Of a stretch of 64,000 bases of DNA, positions 1,783 through 63,133 are shown piece by piece. Under the pieces are notes generated by a model that saw only the letters and a list, made by a program, of their open reading frames with translations, was not told the DNA's origin and searched no databases. The stretch's first letter is position 1. Every line of letters starts with the position of its first letter. The stretch is from the NCBI RefSeq assembly GCF_058153355.1, contig NZ_CM177019.1, one strand, 5' to 3'. Made by a program: the position numbers and the translations under genes.

Positions 1783-1995
1783 GTACGGATTAAAAACAGC
1801 AAACTATTAGCGGGTGCACGGTTTTATCAAAAGATAAATACCGGAAAATTCCGCTTACCTATGCTCACAATCAGTCGACTAAAAATGTTTTTGTGAGCGG
1901 TAGTAAAGTCCTAAAACTTTTACCTGCCGTTAATGTCAACCTTGCGTAATGCACAATTACGTAAACAATTAAAATTATAAATACAGGAGTCCGGC

Positions 1996-3357
1996 GTGGA
2001 AAAAGAAAATATCACCCTCGATCCGCGTTCTTCATTTACTCCATCTTCGTCGGCAGATATTCCCGTGCCACCAGATGGATTAGTTCAACGCAGTACCCGA
2101 ATTAAACGCATTCAAACCACCGCCATGTTGTTATTATTTTTTGCGGCGGTAATCAATTATCTCGACCGCAGTTCACTGTCGGTAGCAAATTTAACGATTC
2201 GTGAAGAATTGGGATTAAGTGCCACCGAAATCGGCGCTTTGCTCTCCGTGTTTTCACTCGCTTACGGGATTGCGCAACTTCCTTGCGGCCCACTATTGGA
2301 TCGTAAAGGCCCGCGCCTGATGCTGGGACTGGGGATGTTCTTCTGGTCACTGTTCCAGGCAATGTCTGGCATGGTGCACAGCTTTACGCAGTTCGTGTTG
2401 GTGCGTATCGGTATGGGGATTGGTGAAGCGCCGATGAACCCATGCGGTGTAAAAGTCATTAACGACTGGTTCAACATCAAAGAGCGCGGACGCCCGATGG
2501 GCTTCTTCAACGCAGCTTCTACCATTGGCGTTGCCGTAAGCCCACCGATTCTGGCGGCGATGATGCTGGTGATGGGCTGGCGCGGGATGTTTATTACCAT
2601 TGGTGTACTGGGGATTTTTCTCGCCATTGGCTGGTATATGCTCTATCGCAACCGCGAGCACGTAGAACTGACTGCCGTTGAACAAGCCTATCTCAATGCC
2701 GGTAGCGTCAATGCCCGCCGTGATCCACTCAGTTTTGCTGAATGGCGCAGCCTGTTCCGTAACCGCACAATGTGGGGAATGATGCTCGGATTCAGTGGCA
2801 TCAATTACACTGCGTGGCTGTATCTGGCCTGGCTGCCAGGTTACCTGCAAACAGCCTATAATCTGGATTTAAAAAGCACCGGGTTGATGGCGGCTATCCC
2901 TTTCCTGTTTGGGGCTGCCGGGATGCTGGTCAATGGTTACGTTACCGACTGGCTGGTCAAAGGAGGAATGGCTCCGATTAAAAGCCGTAAGATCTGCATT
3001 ATTGCCGGGATGTTCTGTTCTGCCGCCTTTACGCTGGTAGTACCGCAAGCGACAACATCCATGACAGCGGTTCTGCTGATTGGCATGGCACTGTTCTGTA
3101 TTCACTTTGCTGGAACATCCTGCTGGGGATTGATCCACGTCGCTGTCGCTTCTCGCATGACTGCATCGGTGGGCAGTATCCAGAACTTTGCCAGCTTCAT
3201 CTGCGCCTCTTTCGCGCCGATCATTACTGGTTTTATTGTCGATACCACCCACTCATTCCGTCTGGCGCTAATCATCTGCGGTTGCGTCACCGCGGCGGGT
3301 GCACTGGCATACATCTTCCTGGTTCGTCAGCCGATCAACGACCCACGTAAAGATTAA
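1996..3357 (+). CDS. lgoT: MFS transporter, L-galactonate:H+ symporter
   Basis: 453-aa multi-TM MFS protein, GTG start after ACAGGAG RBS; length and position match K-12 YjjL/LgoT. Confidence 0.85.
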   Translation: MEKENITLDPRSSFTPSSSADIPVPPDGLVQRSTRIKRIQTTAMLLLFFAAVINYLDRSSLSVANLTIREELGLSATEIGALLSVFSLAYGIAQLPCGPLLDRKGPRLMLGLGMFFWSLFQAMSGMVHSFTQFVLVRIGMGIGEAPMNPCGVKVINDWFNIKERGRPMGFFNAASTIGVAVSPPILAAMMLVMGWRGMFITIGVLGIFLAIGWYMLYRNREHVELTAVEQAYLNAGSVNARRDPLSFAEWRSLFRNRTMWGMMLGFSGINYTAWLYLAWLPGYLQTAYNLDLKSTGLMAAIPFLFGAAGMLVNGYVTDWLVKGGMAPIKSRKICIIAGMFCSAAFTLVVPQATTSMTAVLLIGMALFCIHFAGTSCWGLIHVAVASRMTASVGSIQNFASFICASFAPIITGFIVDTTHSFRLALIICGCVTAAGALAYIFLVRQPINDPRKD

Positions 3358-3366
3358 TTTCCCTAT

Positions 3367-3399
3367 GCCCGATAACATTTTGCTTATCGGGCATTTTTA
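3367..3399. terminator. Hairpin terminator between convergent lgoT and tsr
   Basis: Inverted repeat gcccgataa / ttatcgggc followed by ATTTTTA on the plus strand. Confidence 0.6.
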
Positions 3400-3405
3400 T
3401 GGCGA

Positions 3406-5070
3406 TTAAAACGTTTCCCAGTTCTCTCCGCTATCTGCCACTGCCACTTTGCGCGGCGCAGATGGCGTCACAGTTTTTACTACTGCCGATGCTTCGCGCT
3501 GGCGTTGCTGCTCTTGCTGAATCCGGAACACTGCCACAGCTTCGGTCAGGCGACTGGCCTGCTCCTCCAGCGCGGCGGCGGCGGCGGCAGATTCTTCCAC
3601 CAGCGCGGCGTTTTGTTGGGTTACCCGGTCCATCTCAGCTACTGCTAAGCCAACCTGATCGATACCACGGCTCTGCTCATCAGAAGCCGAAGCAATTTCG
3701 CCCATAATGTCCGTCACGCGGGTCACAGCGCTGACAATCTCTGCCATGGTTTCCCCGGCGCTTTCGACCAGCGTAGAGCCAACATCCACTTTGCCCACCG
3801 AGTCTTCAATCAGGCTTTTAATTTCGCGAGCCGCCTGAGCGCTACGCTGGGCCAGATTACGCACTTCTCCCGCAACCACCGCAAAACCGCGCCCTTGCTC
3901 ACCCGCACGCGCTGCTTCAACCGCCGCGTTCAAAGCCAGAATATTGGTCTGGAAGGCAATGCCGTCAATTACGCTGATAATATCGGCGATTTTCTGCGAA
4001 CTGGTGGAGATATCGCGCATGGTCTGCACCACGTTATCCACCACTTTGCCGCCGCGTTGCGCCGTTTCGGAAGCACTTAACGCCAGGTGGCTGGCCTGAC
4101 GCGCATTTTCGGCGTTCTGCTTCACCGTTGCGGTCAGTTGCTCCATGCTGGCTGCCGTCTCTTCCAGCGAAGCGGCCTGTTGCTCGGTGCGCGAAGAAAG
4201 ATCGTTATTGCCGGTGGCGATTTCGCTGGCACCGCTATAGATAGCATTGGCCCCGTTGCGCACATCACCGACGGTACGCATCAGCTCTCCCTGCATATGG
4301 CGCAAACTCTCTGCCAGTTGCCCCATCTCATTAGAACCATCCACCTCAATCGGTTTCACCAGATCGCCACCTGCAATATGACGAATGCTGTCAATCAGGC
4401 GATTCATTGGCGCTACCAACGAGGCTTTAATACCGAACCAGACGGCGAAGATGACTGCCAGTACGACGATCATCACGCCCACCAGAATCCACATCGCCTG
4501 GCTGTAGGAGGCATTATTATCGCTGACGGCGATATCATAGAGCCGATCGTTTTGCTCCATGTAAGCCACATACTGCTTCTCGAAACCGTCCTGATATCCC
4601 TGAGTCGGCTGATCAAAGAATTCGTTGATTTTGCCTGCACCTAACAGTTGGATCAGTTCCGCCAGCGCATTGTGATAAATATCGTAATTACGTTTGATCT
4701 CTGCCGCTGCGGCGGTGCTCTGACGCGGGTCACGCGGCAATGCTTCGTAATCCGCCCAGTTTTTTTCCGCCTGTTTCAGCGAAATACTGGCACTCTGCAT
4801 CAGCTCGGCAACGGTTGAACCGCTACCAATATTGTTCTGATCCATCATGTAGCGGATCCCCGCGCGGTTGAGGGTGTTACGCGTCTGTAACAACGCGACC
4901 CAGCTGCCATTCAGCGTGGATTGCTGCTGGCGAATGGTTTGTAAAACAGTGAAATTTTCTTTGTCATTCTTTAAGGCATTAAAGAACAGACCGCCTGATG
5001 TCAGTTGTAAAAGGCCAAAAACGGCCAAAACCAGCAGTAAGCTGGTCACGATCTTGATACGTTTTAACAT
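3406..5070 (-). CDS. tsr: Methyl-accepting chemotaxis protein I (serine chemoreceptor)
   Basis: [14 protein letters not shown]-terminus, periplasmic ligand domain, conserved MCP signalling region ([32 protein letters not shown]), C-terminal NWETF. Start taken at Met6 of the listed ORF. Confidence 0.95.
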
Positions 5071-60100: not shown

Positions 60101-60751
60101 TTAATTTGATTTATTCGCATCCATCAACGCTTTTAACTGCTCCGGCGAAAACGGTGGTTTGCGTCGGTGCAACATCGCATGGCAATTAGGGCACACAGGA
60201 AGCAAATCATTAACTGGATCCAGCTGGTAATCCTCTTTAATGGCTGAAAGCGGCACCAGGTGATGCACATGGATAAAGCCTTCAGCGATATCACCATAGA
60301 TCTTCACCAGATCAACGCCGCATACTTTGCACTGGCATCCATGATGTTCGACCGCTTTATCTCGGGCCTTTTTATCGCGTTCATAGCGGTTTACTGTCAC
60401 CTTTATCGCCGCACCTTCAAGGTATGTCTCCTGCGACGGCAACTCATCCGGGAACAGAACGTCGGCTATGGGAGCCGCAGCGGCTTTATCCTGATGAATA
60501 TGAAATCCCTGCTCTATGAGTAGTTTGACGCATTTAGATTTTATTCCGCCGGTGAAATCCGCAGGGGTAAATTGCGTCCCCGTCATCAATGTCGCTGCGA
60601 TGCCAGCAATCGCCTTCGAGGGGTAACGTCGGCCATGATATTCAATCTCATACAACCGCGCAGGCTGGAACTGATGAGTTTCTCCCGCATCCCATAAATG
60701 GATAGCTTCGATGATATACCGCCGCGGAAGATGATCAGGGAGTTTATTCAT
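60101..60751 (-). CDS. HNH endonuclease with uncharacterised N-terminal putative DNA-recognition domain (candidate type IV restriction enzyme)
   Basis: 216 aa; C-terminal zinc-finger HNH (CQCKVCG...HVHHLVPLS...NDLLPVCPNCH); stop 7 bp from the nanS stop, convergent. Confidence 0.65.
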   Translation of the reverse strand: MNKLPDHLPRRYIIEAIHLWDAGETHQFQPARLYEIEYHGRRYPSKAIAGIAATLMTGTQFTPADFTGGIKSKCVKLLIEQGFHIHQDKAAAAPIADVLFPDELPSQETYLEGAAIKVTVNRYERDKKARDKAVEHHGCQCKVCGVDLVKIYGDIAEGFIHVHHLVPLSAIKEDYQLDPVNDLLPVCPNCHAMLHRRKPPFSPEQLKALMDANKSN

Positions 60752-60830: not shown

Positions 60831-61760
60831 TTGAACAGCAGAAAATTTGCGAGCATGATCGCAATTATTTCACTGCCAGGGATATCAATGGCTTCCAGTA
60901 AATCGCTACAGCAGGCAATTGCCAACATAAAAATCTGGCACAAGGGTGAACAGCGCGCGCCGCATAAGCCATTGTTACTGCTATACGTATTAGCGGGATA
61001 CCTGAATGGACATCCGCGCCTTTTCGATTATGGCTCGGAAATCTACGAACCTCTGCACAGTTTACTGGAACGTTTTGGGCCACAGCGTTCACAGTACCGA
61101 CCTGATATGTCGTTCTGGCGATTACAAGGCGACGGATTCTGGCAATTACACAATGCCGAACTTTGCTCAACAGCAGGGAGTAGCCGACAACCGCCAGTGA
61201 AGGAACTGACCGAACACCGCGTTGCAGGCGGTTTCGATGAACAGCACTATGCCCTGGTAATCGGCAATAAAAAACTCATCAATACCCTAGCGCAACAGAT
61301 ACTCGAAGCGCACTTCACCGAGAGCATTCAGGAAGAAATTGCTGACGAGCTGGGTTTTGATCTCCAGCAAATCCGTAAACAGCGCGACCCGTTATTTCGC
61401 AAAAATGTATTACGCGCTTATAAATACCAGTGCGCGATATGTGGCTTTAATATGCGCCACGACGACACCACCGTCGCGTTGGAAGCGGCGCATATAAAAT
61501 GGAAACAGCACGGCGGTCCTTGTGAAATTCCTAATGGCCTGGCGCTTTGTGCAATACACCATAAAGCCTTTGATAAAGGATCGATTGGCCTGGATGAAAA
61601 TATGCGGGTACTGGTCTCGGATGCGGTAAACGGCGGAGGGATCGTTGAGAAACTATTCTGGGATTTTGACGGGAAAACTATTGCGTTACCACAGGTGCGT
61701 AAAAATTACCCTTTTGAGGGGTTTGTGGAGTGGCATCGAAAAGAGGTTTTTAGGGGGTGA
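60831..61760 (+). CDS. HNH endonuclease with N-terminal modified-DNA-sensing-type domain (possibly sulfur-binding-domain-like; candidate type IV restriction enzyme)
   Basis: 309 aa; C-terminal HNH (CAICGFN...EAAHIKW...CAIHHKAFD); roughly 200-aa N-terminal domain; divergent from the 216-aa HNH gene. Confidence 0.6.
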   Translation: MNSRKFASMIAIISLPGISMASSKSLQQAIANIKIWHKGEQRAPHKPLLLLYVLAGYLNGHPRLFDYGSEIYEPLHSLLERFGPQRSQYRPDMSFWRLQGDGFWQLHNAELCSTAGSSRQPPVKELTEHRVAGGFDEQHYALVIGNKKLINTLAQQILEAHFTESIQEEIADELGFDLQQIRKQRDPLFRKNVLRAYKYQCAICGFNMRHDDTTVALEAAHIKWKQHGGPCEIPNGLALCAIHHKAFDKGSIGLDENMRVLVSDAVNGGGIVEKLFWDFDGKTIALPQVRKNYPFEGFVEWHRKEVFRG

Positions 61761-61822: not shown

Positions 61823-63133
61823 CTAAATAAATTCAGCCCCACTAGGAAAACGCAACTCTGATGTCTGTAAACTCTCGCCAATAAAGAAAGGTACAACCCA
61901 TAAACGTAACCTATTTTCCTTCTGATGGCTAAATTCATAAGGATGAGGAGATGGCTGATTAAATCCGTTATGATAGGGGTATATCAAAATCATATCACCT
62001 TCCCCCTCCTGGTAATTCAATCCATAGGCAAGCATTTGGTAGAGATCGGCTTGAGATTGCTCAAGACTGTCCTTTCTGCCATTAACTATCTTCCATTTAA
62101 CATCACAGGTAATAACTGAACCAGTAGTACTTTTACGAGGCCGTAAACAAATATCAGGCCGCAGCTTAAATAAAGCTTTACCGTTATAACTAATCAGATT
62201 TTTTGAACTTACCTGTGCGTCCACTCGCCATTTATCATAATAACGATAACGCATCCATGTCGTCACAAAAGATTCAAAAACAGCCTCCATCGGGAAAAGC
62301 AGTGAAAAAGCATTAACATCCCCATACATACAGTGTGGAGAATCGCCCAATAAAATCATCTTCGCCCACGCTAATGCTTGCTCATAGTGATGCATTTGTC
62401 TATCAAAGTGTAACTGCTCGAAAGCTATATAAGCATCATGAACTGACGTGATATTTTCAAAGTGAAACTGCAGCTGTGTTATCTGCTGTAATAATTGTGG
62501 ATTACTGGTCTGGCGACTAATCTTATTGATTGCAGTTTTGAGTATCCGGTTTTCCAGACGATTGACGCTGTACTCGTCATACTCTACCTGAAAACGATCC
62601 CGCCTAATACAGTTTTTGCTTAATTGTGCAGAGATCCGTAATCTTCCTTTCATCCATGGAAGATTATCTTCCTGACGTAAATAGTCACGTTTTAACCCTC
62701 TCTGCACAATCTTACGCACGCTCTCTATAAATTGTTGAATAAAGATATCCATCAGAGGCATTTTAGATATTTTGACGCCAGATTCAGAGGAGGCAATATG
62801 ACGAAATGATTTTAACGTACGTAACATCATCAGTAATTGTTGACGAACAGTATCCTCATTATCCTGACCTGTTTTAGGCAGGATTTCGAGAAATCGCCCC
62901 CCTGGCAGTGAGATTACTCCTGCATAGTTTTTTACCTGCAGCGTTTTTACTCCATTCCGGCTGCTAAGGGTGAGCAAACGATGAGTATTATCAGCATCGT
63001 CTTTCAGACAGCGCAGCTCAAGCCATTTAAATAGGTCTGCAGGTAGCACTACCGCATTATTTATACGGGCATCACCTTCCTCACTCACTAAATGCCCGTA
63101 TTCGAACACAGTGAAATGACTGGAAGATTTCAT
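61823..63133 (-). CDS. McrC-like PD-(D/E)XK nuclease subunit of a McrBC-type GTP-dependent restriction system
   Basis: 436 aa from MKSSSHFTVFEY; C-terminal D...DVKWK PD-(D/E)XK signature; ATG overlaps the upstream McrB-like stop (ATGA). The listed ORF start at 63199 is discounted. Confidence 0.7.
   Translation of the reverse strand: MKSSSHFTVFEYGHLVSEEGDARINNAVVLPADLFKWLELRCLKDDADNTHRLLTLSSRNGVKTLQVKNYAGVISLPGGRFLEILPKTGQDNEDTVRQQLLMMLRTLKSFRHIASSESGVKISKMPLMDIFIQQFIESVRKIVQRGLKRDYLRQEDNLPWMKGRLRISAQLSKNCIRRDRFQVEYDEYSVNRLENRILKTAINKISRQTSNPQLLQQITQLQFHFENITSVHDAYIAFEQLHFDRQMHHYEQALAWAKMILLGDSPHCMYGDVNAFSLLFPMEAVFESFVTTWMRYRYYDKWRVDAQVSSKNLISYNGKALFKLRPDICLRPRKSTTGSVITCDVKWKIVNGRKDSLEQSQADLYQMLAYGLNYQEGEGDMILIYPYHNGFNQPSPHPYEFSHQKENRLRLWVVPFFIGESLQTSELRFPSGAEFI

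What the first reader, a model, noticed from the sequence alone, without database searches (positions are those of the whole stretch)
63130..63133. McrB-like stop and McrC-like start overlap as ATGA
On the minus strand the McrC-like ATG (63133-63131) overlaps the McrB-like TGA (63132-63130). The ORF track instead starts the McrC-like ORF 22 codons upstream (63199), which would overlap the McrB-like gene by 70 bp. The ATGA junction is the more likely start and implies translational coupling of the two subunits.
Basis: seen in the sequence. Interest (0 to 1): 0.25.

Follow-up and report, generated by a model that had tools for sequence, protein, structure and literature searches.

The report
McrC start overlaps McrB stop
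The nuclease gene (mcrC-like) of a two-gene DNA restriction system starts at an ATG that shares three bases with the stop codon of the upstream motor gene (mcrB-like); this is the commonest gene junction in bacteria, is already annotated this way in public E. coli genomes, and is therefore correct but ordinary.

Summary
On the minus strand, 63133-63130 reads ATGA: the McrC-like ATG is 63133-63131 and the McrB-like TGA is 63132-63130. AGGAG lies 6 nt upstream of the ATG.

The 22-codon longer ORF from TTG 63199 is an artefact of the longest-ORF rule.
- RefSeq annotates the 436-aa ATG form with a 4-nt overlap.
- The 458-aa form is absent from about 15 billion predicted proteins.
- All 120 best homologues begin 2-12 residues before the conserved TVFEYG strand.
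- Without any gene caller, 57 of 77 species' loci allow only one start, and 55 of those lie at -5 to +13 nt (start's first base relative to the stop's first base).
- In the seven closest orthologues the junction is also ATGA. In five of them the "extension" frame contains 1-3 stops.
- Substitutions in the contested stretch fall on McrB third codon positions (15, against 4 and 4).

Translational coupling is likely but not shown. The tight junction is kept across the family (52/57 against 24% genome-wide), and 4 of 5 tested E. coli ATGA pairs are coupled. However, the site has its own good SD and no masking RNA structure.

The locus is an intact McrBC-family Type IV-like operon in a defence island. 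Novelty: already known. Interest is low.

The parts
63130..63133 (-). ATGA junction: McrC-like start ATG (63133-63131) overlapping the McrB-like stop TGA (63132-63130)
   Evidence: Read directly. Identical to the RefSeq CDS boundaries in E. coli E2348/69 and MB50 (window = locus + 53699).
63140..63144 (-). Shine-Dalgarno AGGAG for mcrC, embedded in the last codons of mcrB (R-R-S-A-E-stop), 6-nt spacer
   Evidence: Anti-SD duplex energy is -6.9 kcal/mol, rank 13 of 181 start triplets and 5 of 79 ATGs in the operon. GGAG/GAGG-type motifs sit 6-8 nt before the ATG in the closest orthologues.
61823..63133 (-). mcrC-like CDS, 436 aa plus stop (McrC N-terminal domain plus PD-(D/E)xK nuclease)
   Evidence: Pfam PF10117 at E 3e-100. 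Sequence match to T. gammatolerans McrC 6ut5_G at E 4e-18 and to EcoK McrC. AF2 model pLDDT 76.6, with top PDB folds TgMcrC at E 5e-20 and EcoK McrC at 2e-12. The exact 436-aa sequence is in NCBI for E. coli and E. fergusonii.
63095..63115 (-). Codons for F-T-V-F-E-Y-G (McrC residues 7-13), the first conserved element and first predicted beta-strand
   Evidence: E11 is invariant and F10 and G13 are nearly invariant in 32 diverse homologues. All 120 best homologues start 2-12 residues before it. The model puts a strand at residues 6-10.
62096..62158 (-). McrC nuclease motif P326-D327 ... D344-V-K346 (PD...DxK)
   Evidence: P326, D327, D344 and K346 are invariant in alignment A1. They align with the EcoK McrC catalytic region. 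Coordinates.
63134..63199 (-). The 22 'extra' codons of the ORF-track call (TTG 63199): not McrC coding sequence. The stretch encodes only the McrB C-terminus.
   Evidence: In orthologues L004-L008 this frame contains 1-3 stops; in L009 and L010 it is open but has no start. Substitutions by mcrB codon position in the conserved block are 4/4/15. The 458-aa protein is absent from the 15-billion-protein collection. The TTG is a by-product of McrB's Val-Trp codons GTT TGG.
63130..64000 (-). 3' part of the mcrB-like CDS (C-terminal ~290 of 684 codons; the gene continues beyond the window end). Contains Walker B DEINR (63834-63820), the NxxD signature N-T-A-D (63672-63661), R-R-R-F (63630-63619), the conserved block VWDNPIAWQQIY (63201-63166) and the variable SD-bearing tail APQKEKRRSAE (63165-63133).
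   Evidence: The full-length 684-aa gene was seen in L001. It is 34% identical to the EcoK McrB GTPase over the Walker B to C-terminal region.

Best explanation
mcrB-like and mcrC-like form a bicistronic operon on the minus strand. McrC is translated from ATG 63133, giving a 436-aa protein. The ATG shares TG with, and sits one base ahead of, the mcrB TGA stop. A ribosome finishing McrB terminates on top of the McrC start and, helped by the AGGAG 6 nt upstream inside the McrB tail, most likely reinitiates there (termination-reinitiation). McrC would then be made mainly on mRNAs that are also making McrB. That suits a complex of about six McrB per McrC, in which free nuclease subunit is undesirable. 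Shown here: the start position, the overlap, the SD, the family memberships, and conservation of the tight junction. Inferred: single-transcript expression, the coupling itself, and the stoichiometric rationale.
For: Start site:
- RefSeq CDS boundaries give a 436-aa McrC and a 4-nt overlap.
- The 120 best homologues start 2-12 aa before TVFEYG and cover at most 95% of the 458-aa query.
- Gene-caller-free analysis of 77 species' loci: 57 have only one possible start before the conserved motif, and 55 of those lie -5 to +13 nt from the mcrB stop, measured first base to first base. Fifteen are (A/G)TGA.
- The seven closest orthologues (57-73% identity) all have ATGA, with an in-frame stop 7-82 nt upstream in the mcrC frame.
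- The extension frame carries 1-3 stops in 5 of 7 orthologues, and substitutions fall on mcrB third positions (4/4/15).
- The 458-aa form is not in the public protein collection.
- The fold starts at residue 6.

Coupling:
- 52 of 57 unambiguous junctions lie within -8 to +6 nt by the published intergenic-distance convention (ATGA = -4). The figure is 24% (707/2987) for E. coli unidirectional pairs (PMC10666635).
- Junction types differ among lineages (ATGA, TAATG, ATGnnTGA, 0-6 nt spacers), so tightness is maintained rather than merely inherited.
- 4 of 5 native E. coli ATGA pairs tested were coupled, and overlaps are enriched among subunits of heteromeric complexes (PMC6728339; PMC10666635).
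- There is no promoter-like site on the minus strand within the 3' part of mcrB.
- The complex is McrB6:McrC (review PMC12707154; PDB 6ut7).
Against: - Nothing here measures translation.
- The ATG has a good SD of its own (-6.9 kcal/mol).
- The junction RNA has no significant structure that would make initiation depend on upstream ribosomes (z = -0.13), so de novo initiation could account for some or all McrC synthesis.
- bioBF is a tested E. coli ATGA pair without coupling.
- SD strength alone does not separate ATG 63133 from TTG 63199 (-6.9 against -5.8 kcal/mol).
- The loci compared are related, so the binomial P value overstates independence.
Confidence: 0.72

Rival explanations
1. ATG 63133 is the start, but McrC is initiated independently on its own Shine-Dalgarno. 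The 4-nt overlap would reflect genome compaction or the need to place an SD inside the mcrB tail, not functional coupling.
For: Strong AGGAG at optimal spacing. No occluding RNA structure. bioBF precedent, plus about 40% de novo initiation at menDH. About half of the family's junctions are short spacers rather than overlaps (26 of 57 overlap).
Against: Most tested E. coli ATGA pairs are coupled. Reinitiation efficiency falls steeply with distance, and this family keeps the distance at 6 nt or less in 52 of 57 loci. The products form one complex.
Confidence: 0.22
2. McrC starts at TTG 63199, as in the ORF track. This gives a 458-aa protein whose gene overlaps mcrB by 70 bp.
For: It is the longest ORF. 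A GAGG lies 10 nt upstream, with an anti-SD energy of -5.8 kcal/mol, rank 18 of 181.
Against: No homologue has the extension. The frame is closed by stops in 5 of 7 orthologues and lacks a start in the other two. The substitution pattern shows selection on the mcrB frame only. TTG is a rare start and here is a by-product of Val-Trp codons. This exact 458-aa sequence is absent from the ~15 billion predicted proteins searched. In 70 of 77 loci the longest possible N-terminus before the F-E motif is 15 aa or less, against 31 aa here.
Confidence: 0.02
3. Both starts are used: a major 436-aa McrC and a minor N-terminally extended isoform specific to E. coli. This would be analogous to the two McrB isoforms of K-12.
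For: The TTG has an SD-like element. K-12 mcrB has a documented internal start giving McrB-S.
Against: There is no conservation of the extension even in the closest genera and no annotation of it. Ribosomes translating mcrB through the region would interfere with initiation 67 nt inside the gene.
Confidence: 0.03

Closest known systems
EcoKMcrBC (E. coli K-12 mcrB-mcrC, Type IV GTP-dependent restriction enzyme)
   Same: Same gene order (mcrB then mcrC) and co-directional arrangement, with overlapping stop and start. McrB is an AAA+ GTPase with Walker A, Walker B DEINR and an NxxD signature. McrC has the McrC N-terminal domain plus a PD...DxK nuclease.
   Different: The K-12 junction is TAGTG (GTG start, 1-nt overlap), not ATGA. 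The proteins are distant: 34% identity over the GTPase and 21% over McrC. NCBIfam equivalog scores are far below cut-off, 92 against 637 and 108 against 338. McrB here is 684 aa rather than 459 aa. It has a different N-terminal module (no DUF3578/ADAM) and about 100 aa inserted between Walker A and Walker B. McrC is about 90 aa longer at the N-terminus. The chromosomal site also differs (next to nanS, not the hsd-mrr region).
Thermococcus gammatolerans McrBC (PDB 6ut5, 6ut7)
   Same: It is the best solved relative of this McrC by sequence (E 4e-18, residues 64-412 against 71-424) and by fold (E 5e-20, TM 0.66-0.69). It also has an N-terminal region of about 70 aa ahead of the core.
   Different: Archaeal, 18-22% identity. 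Its McrB carries a YTH-type reader according to the review PMC12707154. No junction comparison was made.
Experimentally coupled E. coli ATGA gene pairs (hyfHI, astDB, ydbH/ynbE, menDH; Huber et al. 2019, 2023)
   Same: Co-directional pair with a -4 overlap, an SD inside the upstream gene, and products that are subunits of one complex.
   Different: Those pairs were tested with reporters; this one was not. bioBF shows the motif does not guarantee coupling.
iEndoIII-McrB fusions noted with END nucleases (preprint PMC12191111)

Membership tests
McrC family (Pfam PF10117: McrC N-terminal domain plus PD-(D/E)xK nuclease) | Significant match to the family profile over its full length | tested here: met
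   PF10117 at E 3.3e-100, profile positions 1-318 of 318.
McrC family (Pfam PF10117: McrC N-terminal domain plus PD-(D/E)xK nuclease) | Intact PD...(D/E)xK catalytic motif | tested here: met
   P326-D327 ... D344-V-K346 are invariant in 32 homologues and align with the EcoK McrC motif region.
McrC family (Pfam PF10117: McrC N-terminal domain plus PD-(D/E)xK nuclease) | Fold like solved McrC from McrBC complexes | tested here: met
   AF2 model (pLDDT 76.6) matches 6ut7_G at E 5e-20, 6ut6_G at 2e-12 and 6hz4_M at 5e-12.
McrC family (Pfam PF10117: McrC N-terminal domain plus PD-(D/E)xK nuclease) | Encoded directly downstream of a McrB-type GTPase gene | tested here: met
   The same arrangement occurs in 77 related loci.
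McrC family (Pfam PF10117: McrC N-terminal domain plus PD-(D/E)xK nuclease) | GTP- and McrB-dependent DNA cleavage | not testable with these tools
   Biochemistry required.
McrB-type AAA+ GTPase (NxxD clade) | Walker A, Walker B (DEINR) and the NxxD signature motif | tested here: met
   GPPGTGKT at residues 234-241 (in L001, outside the window); DEINR at 451-455; N-T-A-D at 505-508. The NxxD definition comes from PMC11090510.
McrB-type AAA+ GTPase (NxxD clade) | N-terminal (or inserted) nucleic-acid specificity domain | tested here: inconclusive
   [not shown]
EcoKMcrBC orthologue (NCBIfam equivalogs NF008457 McrB and NF007277 McrC) | Score above the curated equivalog cut-off | tested here: not met
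   McrB scores 92 bits against a cut-off of 637. McrC scores 107.6 against 338. This is a family member, not the same enzyme, so 5mC specificity cannot be assumed.
Translationally coupled overlapping gene pair (termination-reinitiation) | Co-directional genes with a -4 or -1 overlap or a very short spacer | tested here: met
   ATGA, -4.
Translationally coupled overlapping gene pair (termination-reinitiation) | Both genes on one transcript | tested here: inconclusive
   There is no room for a promoter or terminator at the junction, and no promoter-like site on the minus strand in 63134-64000. These are consensus scans only; no RNA data.
Translationally coupled overlapping gene pair (termination-reinitiation) | Downstream translation depends on ribosomes reaching the upstream stop | not testable with these tools
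   Needs the reporter assay of PMC6728339 or ribosome profiling.

The most novel reading that the evidence does not exclude
The junction itself holds no novelty. The most novel reading left open concerns the operon it belongs to. This McrB, found in about 300 complete E. coli genomes, lacks the 5mC-binding domain of K-12 McrB. Instead it carries an N-terminal all-helical module resembling HhH-GPD DNA glycosylases (Ogg/EndoIII-like), plus an insert of about 100 aa in the GTPase. If the module is an inactivated glycosylase used as a base-flipping sensor, as proposed for END nucleases, this would be a GTP-driven McrBC enzyme aimed at hypermodified phage DNA rather than at 5-methylcytosine.
Probability: 0.3. 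Interest if true: 0.35.

Novelty: already known. Interest (0 to 1): 0.06.

Why it matters
It matters little beyond correct annotation. The result confirms that the longest-ORF call for McrC is 22 codons too long and that the public annotation is right. It also gives a small worked example of how an upstream gene's variable C-terminal tail hosts the ribosome-binding site of its partner gene. Practically, anyone cloning or deleting either gene must keep the 4-nt overlap and the SD in the last 15 nt of mcrB intact, or McrC expression will change.

Tried and rejected
- Within-species polymorphism test in the contested 66 nt: 308 of 315 E. coli alleles are at least 99% identical, so it has no power. 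Cross-genus orthologues were used instead.
- RNA structure masking the SD or ATG: none. MFE z = -0.13, only a 4-bp hairpin that displays GGAG in its loop.
- SD strength as a discriminator: both candidates have SD-like elements (-6.9 against -5.8 kcal/mol), so it does not decide.
- Internal promoter for mcrC: none found on the minus strand in 63134-64000, but the scan is weak evidence.
- Other in-frame starts: only GTG 63109, one residue before the F of the conserved F-E-Y-G motif, which would cut into the first conserved strand. ATG 63072 and GTG 63075 have strong SDs but are out of frame.
- PADLOC: no model matches this McrC and only weak REase or AAA hits match McrB.
- Pfam on the McrB N-terminus and on the extra ~150-aa N-terminal domain of longer relatives: no hits. 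My impression that the latter is EVE/PUA-like is therefore untested.
- Literature search for a published statement on mcrB-mcrC translational coupling: none found.
- The afdb50 fold library was unavailable.

Full report
**1. The observation**

Reading the minus strand (coordinates re-verified) gives ...AAACGC AGGAG TGCGGA ATGA AATCT.... The ATG occupies 63133-63131 and the TGA occupies 63132-63130. An AGGAG (63144-63140) lies 6 nt upstream of the ATG. The mechanical ORF list starts the downstream ORF at TTG 63199-63197. That is 22 codons further upstream and would overlap the upstream ORF by 70 bp.

**2. What the two genes are**

- The downstream ORF matches Pfam McrBC (PF10117) over the whole profile at E 3e-100.
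- By sequence it matches T. gammatolerans McrC and E. coli K-12 McrC among solved structures.
- An AlphaFold model built on 32 homologues (pLDDT 76.6) matches those same chains as top folds, at E 5e-20 and 2e-12.
- The PD...DxK nuclease motif (P326-D327, D344-x-K346) is invariant in the alignment.
- The upstream ORF runs off the window. The full gene is 684 codons in E. coli E2348/69 (L001).
- It is a McrB-type AAA+ GTPase with Walker A GPPGTGKT, Walker B DEINR and the NxxD signature N-T-A-D.
- Both proteins score far below NCBI's equivalog cut-offs for K-12 McrB and McrC. This is a McrBC-family system but not the K-12 enzyme.
- The operon sits in a defence island. Inside the window, an HNH protein and a phosphorothioate-DNA restriction endonuclease lie on one side, next to nanM-nanS. 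In E2348/69 a DUF4942 gene and a Type I R-M system lie beyond the window on the other side.

**3. Which start?**

Public annotation:
- RefSeq places the McrC start at the ATG and annotates a 4-nt overlap in every record inspected.
- The exact 436-aa protein is in NCBI for E. coli and E. fergusonii. The 458-aa form is absent from a collection of about 15 billion predicted proteins.
- All 120 best homologues, down to 40% identity, are 420-467 aa if complete. They begin 2-12 residues before the conserved T-V-F-E-Y-G element and cover at most 95% of the 458-aa query.

Those N-termini come from gene callers, so I repeated the test on raw DNA. I used 80 loci from different species, fetched from genome contigs.
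- In 77 loci a long McrB-like ORF ends next to the McrC homologue.
- In 57 of these only one ATG/GTG/TTG exists between the upstream in-frame stop and the conserved F-E motif.
- 55 of those 57 forced starts lie -5 to +13 nt from the mcrB stop, counted as first base of the start relative to first base of the stop. Fifteen are (A/G)TGA.
- In 70 of 77 loci the longest possible N-terminus ahead of the motif is 15 residues or less. The TTG here would give 31.
- The seven closest orthologues (Yersinia, Pantoea, Silvania, Enterobacter, Lelliottia, Huaxiibacter; 57-73% identity) all have ATGA. Each has an in-frame stop in the mcrC frame only 7-82 nt upstream and no other start.

I then aligned the 69 nt before the stop, ungapped, across the window and these seven orthologues.
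- The "extension" frame has 1-3 stop codons in five orthologues. In the other two it is open but lacks a start.
- In the conserved McrB block VWDNPxAWQQIY, substitutions fall 4, 4 and 15 on mcrB codon positions 1, 2 and 3. Position 3 of mcrB is position 1 of the extension frame.
- Selection therefore acts on the mcrB frame only.
- The TTG is a by-product of McrB's Val-Trp codons (GTT TGG).
- The predicted McrC fold begins with a strand at residues 6-10.

**4. What did not help**

- Anti-SD pairing energy is good for the ATG (-6.9 kcal/mol, rank 13 of 181 start triplets). The TTG also has a usable element (-5.8, rank 18), so SD alone does not decide.
- E. coli alleles are nearly identical, so polymorphism is uninformative.
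- The junction RNA has no significant structure (z = -0.13).

**5. Coupling**

Evidence in favour:
- McrB's last ~10 residues vary in sequence among orthologues but keep their length, and they always carry a GGAG/GAGG-type motif 6-8 nt before the McrC ATG. The tail of one gene serves as the ribosome-binding site of the next.
- In the published intergenic-distance convention (ATGA = -4), 52 of the 57 unambiguous junctions lie within -8 to +6 nt. Only 24% (707/2987) of E. coli unidirectional pairs do (PMC10666635).
- Junction types differ between lineages, so tightness is maintained rather than just inherited.
- Huber et al. found 4 of 5 native E. coli ATGA pairs coupled (PMC6728339). They also found that reinitiation collapses within about 20 nt and that short overlaps are enriched among subunits of heteromeric complexes (PMC10666635).
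- McrBC assembles as McrB6:McrC (PMC12707154; PDB 6ut7).
- No promoter-like site lies inside the 3' part of mcrB.

Evidence against:
- A strong SD of its own and the lack of a masking structure would allow independent initiation.
- bioBF is an uncoupled ATGA pair.
- I found no published test for any mcrBC operon.

I put the start site at about 0.97 and functional coupling at about 0.7-0.75.

**6. Comparison with the known**

- K-12 mcrB and mcrC also overlap, but as TAGTG with a GTG start.
- ATGA is the commonest junction of co-directional genes in E. coli.
- The McrBC census paper states that the two components are typically expressed as a single operon with McrB upstream, and that inserts in the GTPase domain are frequent (PMC11090510).
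- Nothing about the junction is new, and the correct start is already in RefSeq.

**7. Side observation, outside the finding and mostly outside the window**

- McrB residues 1-205 have no Pfam match.
- They are shared by 37 of the related McrB proteins.
- They model confidently as an all-alpha domain (pLDDT 87).
- The best Foldseek hit, though not significant, is also an Ogg.
- A 2025 preprint reports inactivated EndoIII/Ogg-like sensor domains for hypermodified bases, fused among others to McrB-like GTPases (PMC12191111).
- This is a lead for the specificity of this operon, not a result.

**8. Verdict**

It is already known and ordinary, so interest is low.

Noticed in passing
[not shown]
   Followed up: partly
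window 63883-64000 (minus strand) and beyond; McrB residues ~331-434: Relative to K-12 McrB, this GTPase carries an insertion of about 100 aa between the Walker A block and Walker B. It is conserved in 19 of the related loci. The census paper says such inserts are common and may be specificity domains. It was not modelled.
   Followed up: partly
window 61823-64000 (protein cluster): In the 90%-identity protein clustering, the 436-aa McrC and the 684-aa McrB fall in one cluster of 2170 members with a McrB as representative. This suggests that some assemblies yield a fused McrB-McrC call, for example through a 1-nt indel at the ATGA junction. Members could not be enumerated.
   Followed up: no
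window 60101-60751 (minus strand): There is another start or frame ambiguity next door. The HNH-endonuclease ORF is 216 aa in the window. RefSeq annotates it as 181 aa plus a separate 29-aa hypothetical protein in E2348/69, and as frameshifted in strain MB50.
   Followed up: no
window 60831-61760 (plus strand): This is a full-length phosphorothioated-DNA-binding restriction endonuclease (NCBIfam NF045808, E 7e-130), convergent with mcrC. The ORF track starts it at TTG 60831, but RefSeq starts it 57 nt later, at 60888 by the locus mapping. Together with the HNH gene and McrBC, this makes a cluster of modification-dependent nucleases beside nanS.
   Followed up: no
L084 (E. coli strain 203740), locus 1831-3790: In this strain the McrB gene is annotated as frameshifted, and the match is 11 nt shorter over the 801-nt query. 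McrC and the ATGA junction stay intact. This looks like decay of the motor subunit with the nuclease gene retained.
   Followed up: no
L039, L047, L059, L063, L033 and others: first ~150 codons of the McrB-like ORF: Longer relatives (725-910 aa) carry an extra N-terminal domain (consensus YLLTWNPK...GD.VYL.R.G...GI.A.G.V) ahead of the shared helical module. It looked EVE/PUA-like to me, but Pfam gives no hit at E <= 1.
   Followed up: partly
L003:1457-1461 (E. coli K-12 mcrB/mcrC): The prototype K-12 operon uses a different tight junction, TAGTG, with a GTG start sharing one base with the TAG stop.
   Followed up: yes
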